From assembly GCA_951406725.2 (NCBI GenBank), contig OX597825.1, positions 81,158,001 through 81,222,000 on the forward strand: 64,000 nt of DNA, given 5' to 3'. Origin of the DNA: Octopus vulgaris. Lineage: Eukaryota. Every line of letters begins with the position of its first letter. Position 1 is the stretch's first letter. The position numbers and the translations under genes are program-made. Of this stretch, positions 3,018 to 55,351 are shown piece by piece. Under the pieces are notes generated by a model that did no database searches, was not told where the DNA came from, and saw only the letters and a program-made list of their open reading frames with translations.

Positions 3018-3021
<4 letters not shown>

Positions 3022-3366
3022 GGAAAAAAGCAACAAGAATGGATTAAAATCTCGGTACGATCGTTTCGTACGAGGACATCTTTAATAAGCTACAAAAAAT
3101 GCAGTGAATACAGATGGCTCGTACTCGTACTCGTCAGCTGACGAGTACGAGCCATCTGTATTCACTGCATTTTTTGTAGCTTATTAAAGATGTCCTCGTA
3201 CGAAACGATCGTACCGAGATTTTAATCCATTCTTGTTGCTTTTTTCCTATTTGTAATCACCCCACTTGTCGTATGGTTAACACCATATAGATTTCCGGTG
3301 CATCCTAGTTAAGGACCATATTCATGTGAATTCTTTAGAATCCACTTGAATCTCAATTACTTAACC

Positions 3367-3367
<1 letters not shown>
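3018..3367 (+). mobile_element. (TA)n-embedded fold-back element with hammerhead core, probable Penelope-like terminus
   Basis: Near-perfect palindrome 3018-3251 followed by a ~115 bp unique tail, with (TA)n on both sides. A homologous copy lies at 45659-45845. Confidence 0.8.
3138..3219 (+). ncRNA. Type I hammerhead ribozyme core (5' strand of stem I truncated)
   Basis: CTGACGA 3138-3144; stem II GTACGAG 3145-3151 / CTCGTAC 3195-3201; GAAA 3202-3205; palindromic stem III CGATCG; TA 3212-3213 (GUA cleavage triplet). Confidence 0.8.
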
Positions 3368-45583: not shown

Positions 45584-45658
<75 letters not shown>

Positions 45659-45845
45659 ATAGGAAAAAAGCAACAAGAATGGATCAAAATATATATTTTG
45701 ATCCATTCTTGTTGCTTTTTTCCTATTTGTAATCACCCCACTTTATCGTATGGTTAACACCATATAGATTTCTGGTGCATCCAAGTCAAGTACCATATTC
45801 TTGTGAATTCAATAGAACTCATTTGAATCTTAATTGCCTAAACCG
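45659..45845 (+). mobile_element. Second, shorter copy of the 3018-3367 fold-back element
   Basis: Perfect 68-bp palindrome 45659-45726 and the same tail ending AACCG|(TA)n. Confidence 0.85.
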
Positions 45846-45889
45846 TATATATATATATATATATATATACTTATCTATCTATGTATCTA

Positions 45890-54889: not shown

Positions 54890-55351
54890 GATGATGACGA
54901 CGCCAACGATAGTGGTGGTGGTGGTGGTGGTGATGATGATGATGATGATGGCGGTGGTGATCGTAGTGGTAGAAAAGAAGAACAACGAGAAGAAAGCGGT
55001 TGGGCTTTAGTTTCTTTCTTATTTATTTGTTTAATTAATTAATGGATTTAAACCTCCGTATGAAGTCGGTTCGACACGGTTGAGTAAGAACGAAACAAAA
55101 CCCAAAAATATACTAAAAAGAAAAGTAAAAGCCGCAAAGAAATTGAACTGAGAAAGTATATATGTCCGTCTGTTTCTTTTTCTAAATCTTCTCAACCTCC
55201 GGGAATTGGAAGATCTTCTTTAGGGTTGGTGAATTCTTGAATATAAACTGCAACCCTAGCATTGGTAGCTTTTTAAGGACCATTGTTAAACCGTCCTCTC
55301 TTTCACCTTTCCCCGCCTTTCTCTCTCTCTCTCTCTCTCTGTGTCTGTCTG

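What the first reader, a model, noticed from the sequence alone, without database searches (positions are those of the whole stretch)
45659..45845. Sister copy starts just downstream of the predicted cleavage site and its inverted arm was copied locally
Seen: this copy shares its outer arm end and 3' end (AACCG|TA) with 3018-3367. Its body begins at ATTTTGATCC, about 5 nt after the GTA cleavage triplet of the longer copy. A variant base is present in both arms (GGATCAAAAT/ATTTTGATCC versus GGATTAAAAT/ATTTTAATCC). Inference: each inverted arm was templated from its own copy, and this insertion may derive from the 3' self-cleavage product.
Basis: partly seen in the sequence, partly recalled or inferred. 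Interest (0 to 1): 0.7.

Follow-up and report, generated by a model that had tools for sequence, protein, structure and literature searches.

The report
Twin-primed Penelope stub, not cleavage product
This small palindrome is one of hundreds of broken-off copies of a Penelope-type jumping gene; its mirror-image arm was likely a second copy started from the opposite DNA strand on the same template, and copies across the genome do not tend to begin at the ribozyme's predicted cut site.

Summary
The sequence is as described: a perfect 34-bp palindrome, a 153-bp body 89% identical to 3018-3367, and the same two outer ends. Both are 5'-truncated stubs of a young Penelope-like retrotransposon (1,090-aa ORF with Hydra-clade motifs, GIY-YIG, dimer-type hammerhead, (TA)n targets). 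The 'variant' base is a subfamily allele (60 of 190 bodies), and the body starts at +4 from the predicted cut, on a native ATAT.

Among 223 copies, starts at +1..+10 number 6 against 6.6 expected, and 99 of 104 arms run through the cut site.

Arm and body do share a template (844 of 857 diagnostic sites agree), but the arm is usually not a fold-back copy. It starts at a fixed site (about +34/+35), reaches further 5' than the body in 55 of 104 copies, and sometimes does not overlap it. The best model is twin priming from both nicked strands at two fixed RNA sites about 119 nt apart.

The architecture is known. The two-cDNA evidence and the long tail are modest additions. This scan noted similar stubs in other genomes, but the pile-up at the hammerhead's front edge reported there is absent here.

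The parts
45584..45658 (.). Upstream host flank: (TATC)n microsatellite ending in a short TA run (target side)
45659..45692 (-). Inverted arm, element positions +37 to +4 from the predicted cut; 45659-45661 could equally be TA target. Inferred second cDNA primed at internal start site 2 (about +34/+35)
45689..45696 (.). Head-to-head junction ATAT|ATAT on the native ATAT palindrome (+4..+7). No overlap between arm and body, unlike the 7 other symmetric junctions, which overlap by 4-9 nt
45693..45845 (+). Forward body: 5'-truncated pLTR end of subfamily B, from +4 to start site 1 (AAACCG); carries no hammerhead core
45727..45845 (+). 'Tail': about 119 nt between the two inferred RT start sites, present at one end only
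45846..45869 (.). (TA)12 downstream target microsatellite
3018..3137 (-). Inverted arm of the longer sister copy (subfamily A), +38 to about -77, with a 6-bp CTCGTA duplication absent from its body
3138..3367 (+). Body of the longer copy: CTGACGA core 3138-3144, stem II 3145-3151/3195-3201, GAAA 3202-3205, palindromic stem III 3206-3211, predicted cut 3213/3214. The 5' strand of stem I is lost

Best explanation
The feature is a 5'-truncated insertion of a Penelope-like retrotransposon in a TA microsatellite, and it was likely made by twin priming on uncleaved RNA. Inferred steps: the GIY-YIG endonuclease nicks both strands of (TA)n about 14-16 bp apart. One 3' end primes reverse transcription at site 1 (AACCG, about +154 from the ribozyme cut) and the other primes at site 2 (about +34/+35), probably on the same RNA or on RNA from the same source element. 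Both cDNAs stop early and are joined head-to-head, usually through a few bases of microhomology. In this copy both happened to end at the native ATAT at +4. Shown: family identity, fixed outer ends, unequal arm and body lengths, shared alleles, no peak at the cut. Inferred: two priming events, a single RNA, the joining step.
For: Fixed second start: 106 of 229 copies have a mapped arm, with outer ends at +29..+43 and a mode at +34/+35. 104 of 105 have (TA)3 at that end. There are 305 exact TA-plus-arm-start hits genome-wide.

Either end can use either site: site 2 at both ends in L308 and L335, reversed in L311.

Two separate cDNAs: the arm goes >10 nt further 5' than the body in 55 of 104 copies, the body further in 28, and 21 are within 10 nt. 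Seven bodies start 3' of the arm's outer end. L338 has a 32-nt partner that does not overlap its arm.

Same template: figures; and arm-only sequence matches the tail-nearest copies better than average in 26 of 26 copies (2.9% vs 7.9%). Arm and body lengths correlate (rho 0.48, n=103; rho 0.39 without the near-symmetric cases).

Possible collision on one RNA: body truncation rises from 6 per 5,319 nt (+46..+80) to 17 per 3,665 nt (+20..+45), p=0.0013, bins chosen after seeing the data.

Junctions and target: microhomology of 2 nt or more in 53 of 104 junctions. TSDs of 14-17 bp in 7 arm-bearing copies.

Uncleaved template: 99 of 104 arms and 29 of 30 arm-anchored ends cross the cut.

Literature: a PLE protein nicks and extends both strands, starts RT at two internal sites that define the tail, and does not need HHR cleavage in vitro (PMC11167929).
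Against: Exactly symmetric ends are in excess (6 of 103 vs 0.32 expected), and the 7 other junctions symmetric within 1 nt sit on native palindromes, which snap-back priming would also give. This copy is of that symmetric class, so for it alone fold-back cannot be told from two cDNAs. Its junction has no overlap (4 AT units where annealing at ATAT would leave 2), which needs a blunt join or slippage. 36 of 104 junctions carry extra bases. 91 of 223 copies show no arm or stub by my rules. No 14-16 bp TSD is visible around this copy. One RNA cannot be told from two RNAs of one source, and gene conversion between arms could add to arm-body identity.
Confidence: 0.75

Rival explanations
1. One reading: this copy was reverse transcribed from the 3' product of hammerhead self-cleavage. 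Both cDNAs ran off the RNA's 5'-OH end at +1 and lost 3 nt on joining at ATAT.
For: Both arm and body end at +4, with no overlap. The hammerhead looks selected: stem III loop GATC in 94 and AATT in 51 of 150 copies, and 2 of 3 natural copies cofold into the dimeric hammerhead. L314 ends at +3, and three armless copies at -1, -2 and -3 could be +1 with chance matches.
Against: No excess at the cut: bodies +1..+10 6 vs 6.6, +1..+3 1 vs 2.0, -3..+3 5 vs 3.9; arms +1..+10 2 vs 5.2, -3..+3 0 vs 3.1. Of the 6 other bodies starting at +1..+10, 3 have arms that cross the cut (-95, -19, -6). Only 6 mapped arm-bearing copies, this one included, lie wholly 3' of the cut, and they are scattered (+4 to +61). 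The densest window is upstream of the cut (-6..-15, scan-corrected p 0.085-0.20). PMC11167929 found unprocessed RNA to be the main substrate.
Confidence: 0.12
2. Snap-back (self-priming): one cDNA folds back at a short palindrome and copies itself to make the arm, as proposed for rotifer Penelope junction palindromes. It may act in the symmetric minority, including this copy.
For: Excess of exactly symmetric junctions on native palindromes. This copy is a perfect palindrome. PMC3846280 reads such palindromes as self-priming (passages).
Against: It cannot give arms longer than the body (55 of 104) together with a tail that only the body has, nor non-overlapping arm and body. It does not explain a fixed, TA-abutting outer end that also serves as a forward 3' end (L308, L311, L313, L335).
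Confidence: 0.2
3. Dual priming: the two ends copy two different RNA molecules of the family, and arm-body identity reflects one active source at a time or later gene conversion.
For: Either end can use either start site. The hammerhead is dimer-type, so RNA pairs are plausible. 23 of 35 body-private alleles are not shared by the arm, though post-insertion mutation explains these too.
Against: Length correlation between arm and body, within subfamilies as well (rho 0.44 and 0.37); 12 private alleles shared; only 13 of 857 diagnostic sites discordant; the rise in truncation at site 2.
Confidence: 0.2

Closest known systems
EN+ Penelope-like elements, Hydra clade (Craig et al. 2021, PMC8557442)
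   Same: C-terminal GIY-YIG; RWR (RWK-like), DKT, CxCx5C linker, CxxC before E and CxH after N; no cysteine pair inside the GIY-YIG core; hammerhead in the pLTR; (TA)n targets; 5' truncation, inverted 5' copy, optional tail.
   Different: The unit is about 4.7 kb with a 1,090-aa ORF carrying an Asn-rich block, against 'generally <3 kb'. The tail is about 119 nt against 30-40 bp. No tree was built.
PAc (Poseidon of Anolis) in vitro mechanism (Frangieh et al. 2024, PMC11167929)
   Same: Two internal RT start sites define the tail, both strands are nicked and extended, AT-rich targets, cleavage not needed.
   Different: There the start sites lie inside the ORF and the tail is 30-40 nt. Here both lie in the 5' UTR (ATG at +209, site 1 at +154). 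The two parts read (of 4) do not analyse how inverted arms form.
L1 twin priming and dual priming (PMC2837659)
   Same: A second RT primed from the top-strand nick gives an inverted segment within TSDs, with microhomology at the junction.
   Different: L1 uses a variable internal site and gives inversion with deletion. Here the second site is fixed, and the first cDNA usually runs through it, giving an inverted duplication.
Adineta vaga Penelope inverted pLTRs with junction palindromes (Arkhipova et al. 2013, PMC3846280)
   Same: Head-to-head inverted pLTR, palindromes at the junction, tail, TSD, Asn-rich ORF inserts.
   Different: Explained there by self-priming. Most copies here have unequal or non-overlapping arms that self-priming cannot give.
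Animal non-LTR retrozymes (10.64898/2026.07.22.740005)
   Same: Short type I hammerhead-bearing repeats related to pLTRs.
   Different: These copies are variable 5' truncations of a coding element, not tandem monomers.

Membership tests
EN+ Penelope-like element | Single ORF with RT and C-terminal GIY-YIG | tested here: met
   1,090/1,091-aa frames in L307 and L308; GIY-YIG 23.2 bits, above the 22.6 cut-off. RT rests on motifs only (YRDD, DKT): Pfam and PDB gave no RT hit.
EN+ Penelope-like element | pLTR repeated on both sides of the ORF (partial tandem) | tested here: met
   L308 and L310 carry the pLTR upstream and downstream of the ORF; cuts 4,722 bp apart in L308.
EN+ Penelope-like element | Inverted 5'-truncated copy and optional tail | tested here: met
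   106 of 229 copies with a mapped arm; tail at either, or neither, end. The length of about 119 nt is atypical.
EN+ Penelope-like element | Type I hammerhead with short palindromic helix III in the pLTR | tested here: met
   Core, 7-bp stem II, 4-5 bp stem I; loop GATC/AATT swap; dimer cofold in 2 of 3 copies; matches the description in PMC4209133. Rfam gathering found nothing.
EN+ Penelope-like element | Self-cleavage activity | not testable with these tools
   Needs an in vitro assay.
Hydra clade | RWK, DKT, CxCx5C, CxxC/CxH motifs; GxKF/Y and CCHH absent | tested here: met
   RWR at 56, DKT at 143, CNCRIKSKC at 950, CQLC at 1047, CIH at 1078, no GxKF/Y, one Cys in IIYKCSVTTDNNKFSYVG. RWR rather than RWK.
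Hydra clade | (TA)n targeting | tested here: met
   (TA)3 at the 3' end in 209 of 224 copies.
Hydra clade | Length generally <3 kb | tested here: not met
   About 4.7 kb. The paper gives this as a tendency, and the excess includes an Asn-rich block.
Hydra clade | Phylogenetic placement of the RT | not tested
   No reference sequences were fetched; the paper's supplement was not read.
Retrocopy of the 3' hammerhead cleavage product | Peak of 5' ends at +1 | tested here: not met
Non-LTR retrozyme | Tandem non-coding monomers with a hammerhead in each unit | tested here: not met
   Copies are nested 5' truncations extending into the ORF.

The most novel reading that the evidence does not exclude
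The head-to-head Penelope insertion is the routine product of twin priming on one RNA. An RT-endonuclease pair primes both nicked strands at two fixed sites about 119 nt apart, and the rear RT must displace the front cDNA, which shows up as the rise in truncation at site 2. This would explain inverted pLTRs, the optional tail and junction palindromes with one mechanism, without self-priming or ribozyme cleavage.
Probability: 0.55. Interest if true: 0.55.

Novelty: new member of a known kind. Interest (0 to 1): 0.33.

Why it matters
How Penelope-like elements make their inverted structures, and what their hammerhead does, are stated as open in PMC8557442 (passages seen). This young, high-copy family with near-intact ORFs gives a genome-wide footprint that favours two priming events on a shared template and argues against the cleaved RNA as the usual template. 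It also names two start sites that can be mutated in an in vitro assay. The single locus is ordinary, and the cleavage-product reading, which would have been the surprising one, is not supported.

Tried and rejected
Rfam at gathering thresholds: no match in the window. Pfam on the whole ORF and on the RT part, and a PDB sequence search: no RT hit. Monomer folds did not give the full hammerhead (z -0.5, -1.1, -2.5). One search folded the wrong stretch and is disregarded. One search timed out.

Sequencing runs: no RNA holder listed, and only contigs were offered, so no reads were laid and RNA ends were not examined.

The best-hit set looked piled up at -16..+4. It is score-ranked, so it was not used as a sample; 11 of its loci entered only because they are among the 62 pattern hits.

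A pile-up at the hammerhead's front edge, a lead from earlier notes on other genomes, was tested and not found: -79..-95 bodies 8 vs 7.5, arms 5 vs 5.3; -67..-78 10 vs 5.6 and 8 vs 4.0, not significant after scan correction. The weak match at 55041-55073 has no hammerhead and is taken as chance.

Searches of earlier findings by place and by sequence gave nothing. Paper searches for a twin-priming account of Penelope inversions listed none by title or abstract start. The library lacks most subscription papers, and no supplements were read.

Full report
1. Observation. 45659-45726 is a perfect palindrome of 34 bp per arm with its centre at 45692/45693. The forward part 45695-45841 is 89.1% identical to 3219-3364. 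Both copies end AACCG|TA, and their arms start within 1 nt of each other. Positions below are counted from the predicted cut GTA|C (3213/3214 in the long copy). The short copy's nearest relatives (L032, L033; 99%) read GTA|CCGATATTTTGATCC, so its body and its arm both end at +4, on a native ATAT. The G at +11 is carried by 60 of 190 bodies, so it marks a subfamily and is not a private change.

2. What it is. The window lies in a 2.8-Gb genome. Relatives extend 5' for variable lengths into an ORF. L307 and L308 hold frames of 1,090 and 1,091 aa just downstream of the same repeat, and L308 and L310 have the repeat on both sides of the ORF, with a unit of 4,722 bp in L308. The C-terminal 150 aa pass Pfam's GIY-YIG cut-off. 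The RT is recognised by motifs only (YRDD, DKT), since Pfam and PDB gave no RT hit. The motifs RWR, DKT, CxCx5C, CxxC and CxH, with no GxKF/Y and no cysteine pair in the GIY-YIG core, fit the Hydra clade as described in PMC8557442 section 11; no tree was built. The pLTR holds a type I hammerhead with a palindromic stem III whose loop is GATC in 94, AATT in 51, GATT in 4 and AAGT in 1 of 150 copies. Two of three natural copies cofold into the dimeric hammerhead, as described for PLE hammerheads in PMC4209133. The ATG is at +209 and the usual 3' end at +154. (TA)3 follows the 3' end in 209 of 224 copies.

3. Sample. Three exact-pattern sets, listed by position and so blind to the 5' end, were used: the first 100 of 304, all 62 of 62 and the first 100 of 111, giving 229 unique loci. 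All need an exact anchor at +58 or +83, so they favour young copies that carry the tail. 19 are censored by the 1.5-kb flank. 106 have a mapped arm, 11 a stub too short to map, and 19 an inverted match whose outer end was not mapped in +26..+46. Dropped for the final tests: the discovery copy L031; L069, L063, L304 and L306 (shared flanks or the same insertion); and L180, presumed a duplicate of L179, not confirmed, censored either way. One search dropped L152 and kept L304 and L306. Two starts were corrected by eye (L138 to +20, L214 to -9).

4. Test of the cleavage-product idea. Against a constant hazard over +45..-200, bodies start at +1..+10 6 times (6.6 expected), at +1..+3 once (2.0) and at -3..+3 5 times (3.9). 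Arms end at +1..+10 twice (5.2) and at -3..+3 never (3.1). Arms start only about 35 nt 3' of the cut, yet 99 of 104 cross it. In a sample anchored on the arm start (first 30 of 305; several are the same insertions as above), 29 of 30 cross it and one, L314, ends at +3. Three of the six other bodies at +1..+10 have arms reaching -6, -19 and -95. The densest window is upstream of the cut (-6..-15: 14 vs 6.1 for bodies, scan-corrected p 0.20; bodies plus arms 22 vs 10.7, p 0.085), so it is not significant. It overlaps the palindromes of stem III and stem II, which offer microhomology (inference). 125 of 216 bodies and 59 of 104 arms pass the whole hammerhead. PMC11167929 (parts 1-2 of 4 read) found that HHR mutants insert normally in vitro and saw no RNA ends at the cut. 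For the cleavage idea remain this copy's symmetric, overlap-free +4 junction, L314, and three armless starts at -1..-3.

5. How the arm forms. Outer ends fall at +29..+43, mode +34/+35, next to TA in 104 of 105. The same site also serves as a forward 3' end (L308, L311, L313, L335), and L311 has its arm from site 1. The 119 nt between the sites is therefore the optional PLE tail, three to four times the 30-40 bp of PMC8557442. The arm reaches more than 10 nt further 5' than the body in 55 copies, the body further in 28, and 21 are within 10 nt. Seven bodies start 3' of the arm's outer end, and L338 has a 32-nt partner. These need two cDNAs. They share a template: arm vs own body 1.3%, vs tail-nearest copies 2.2% (Wilcoxon p 4e-4; own closer in 41, further in 17, tied in 17 of 75), vs all 6.5%; 844 of 857 diagnostic sites agree; 12 of 35 private alleles are shared; arm-only sequence tracks the tail's subfamily in 26 of 26. 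Lengths correlate (rho 0.48; 0.39 without near-symmetric cases). Body truncation is about four times higher at +20..+45 than at +46..+80 (p 0.0013, post hoc). Junctions overlap by 2 nt or more in 53, by 0-1 in 15, and carry extra bases in 36 of 104. Fifteen of 206 loci gave informative flank duplications against 2-4 per shuffle; 7 arm-bearing ones are 14-17 bp, one is 10 bp, and six short armless ones look spurious. None is visible around this copy. Against a pure two-cDNA model, exactly symmetric ends are in excess (6 of 103 vs 0.32) and lie on native palindromes, the pattern read as self-priming in PMC3846280 (passages).

6. Comparison. The architecture is that of EN+ PLEs. The mechanism works like L1 twin priming (PMC2837659, passages) but with a fixed second site and a duplicated segment. 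bioRxiv 10.64898/2026.07.22.740005 (part 1 of 5) and 10.1101/2024.12.14.628481 (passages) gave context only. My searches listed no paper applying twin priming to PLE arms; older subscription papers and supplements were not seen. Earlier AI notes on other genomes report similar stubs. One reads the hairpins as two separately started copies, which agrees with this result. Several report a pile-up just 5' of the hammerhead, which is not seen in this family.

7. Verdict. The shared-template inference is right, the fold-back wording is mostly wrong, and the cleavage-product origin is unsupported (about 0.12 for this copy). Interest 0.33, carried by the family-level evidence on mechanism.

Noticed in passing
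window 3018-3137 and 3138-3218: The long copy's arm has a 6-bp CTCGTA duplication that its body lacks, and the copy has lost the 5' strand of stem I, so its hammerhead is incomplete.
   Followed up: partly
L068, L069, L152: Identical arm-body junction (-21/-7). L068 and L069 share flanks, but L152 sits in different flanks with its own 17-bp TSD: either a recurrent junction or a re-mobilised palindromic mini-element.
   Followed up: partly
L144, L305/L306: Partial tandems that read about 105 nt past site 1 into the ORF start and then jump to about -110/-120 of another pLTR copy.
   Followed up: partly
L307:3172-6441 (-), L308:2900-6172 (+): Near-intact ORFs with an Asn-rich block (20-35% N over residues about 500-1000) between RT and endonuclease, like the N-rich inserts described in PMC3846280.
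   Followed up: partly
G000, one search hits at about 80% identity: Many related PLE copies with open frames up to about 980 aa (150 scored of 8,680 candidates), probably a second, abundant family.
   Followed up: no
L337:1500-1620, L338:1500-1600: Insertions whose forward partner is only 7 nt (L337) or 32 nt (L338) of the site-1 end, joined to a long arm.
   Followed up: partly
element positions -168, -197, -209: Several copies share 5' ends at these positions (3, 3 and 4 copies); two of the symmetric junctions there sit on CATG and ATGCAT palindromes.
   Followed up: no
L310:30-974, L309:8827-9900, L164, L165, L166: Fragments of other mobile elements in the flanks; by recalled resemblance only, LINE endonuclease/RT pieces and a mariner-like transposase.
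   Followed up: no
window 55041-55073: Weak 33-bp match to the arm (79%, E 0.22) with no hammerhead; taken as chance.
   Followed up: yes
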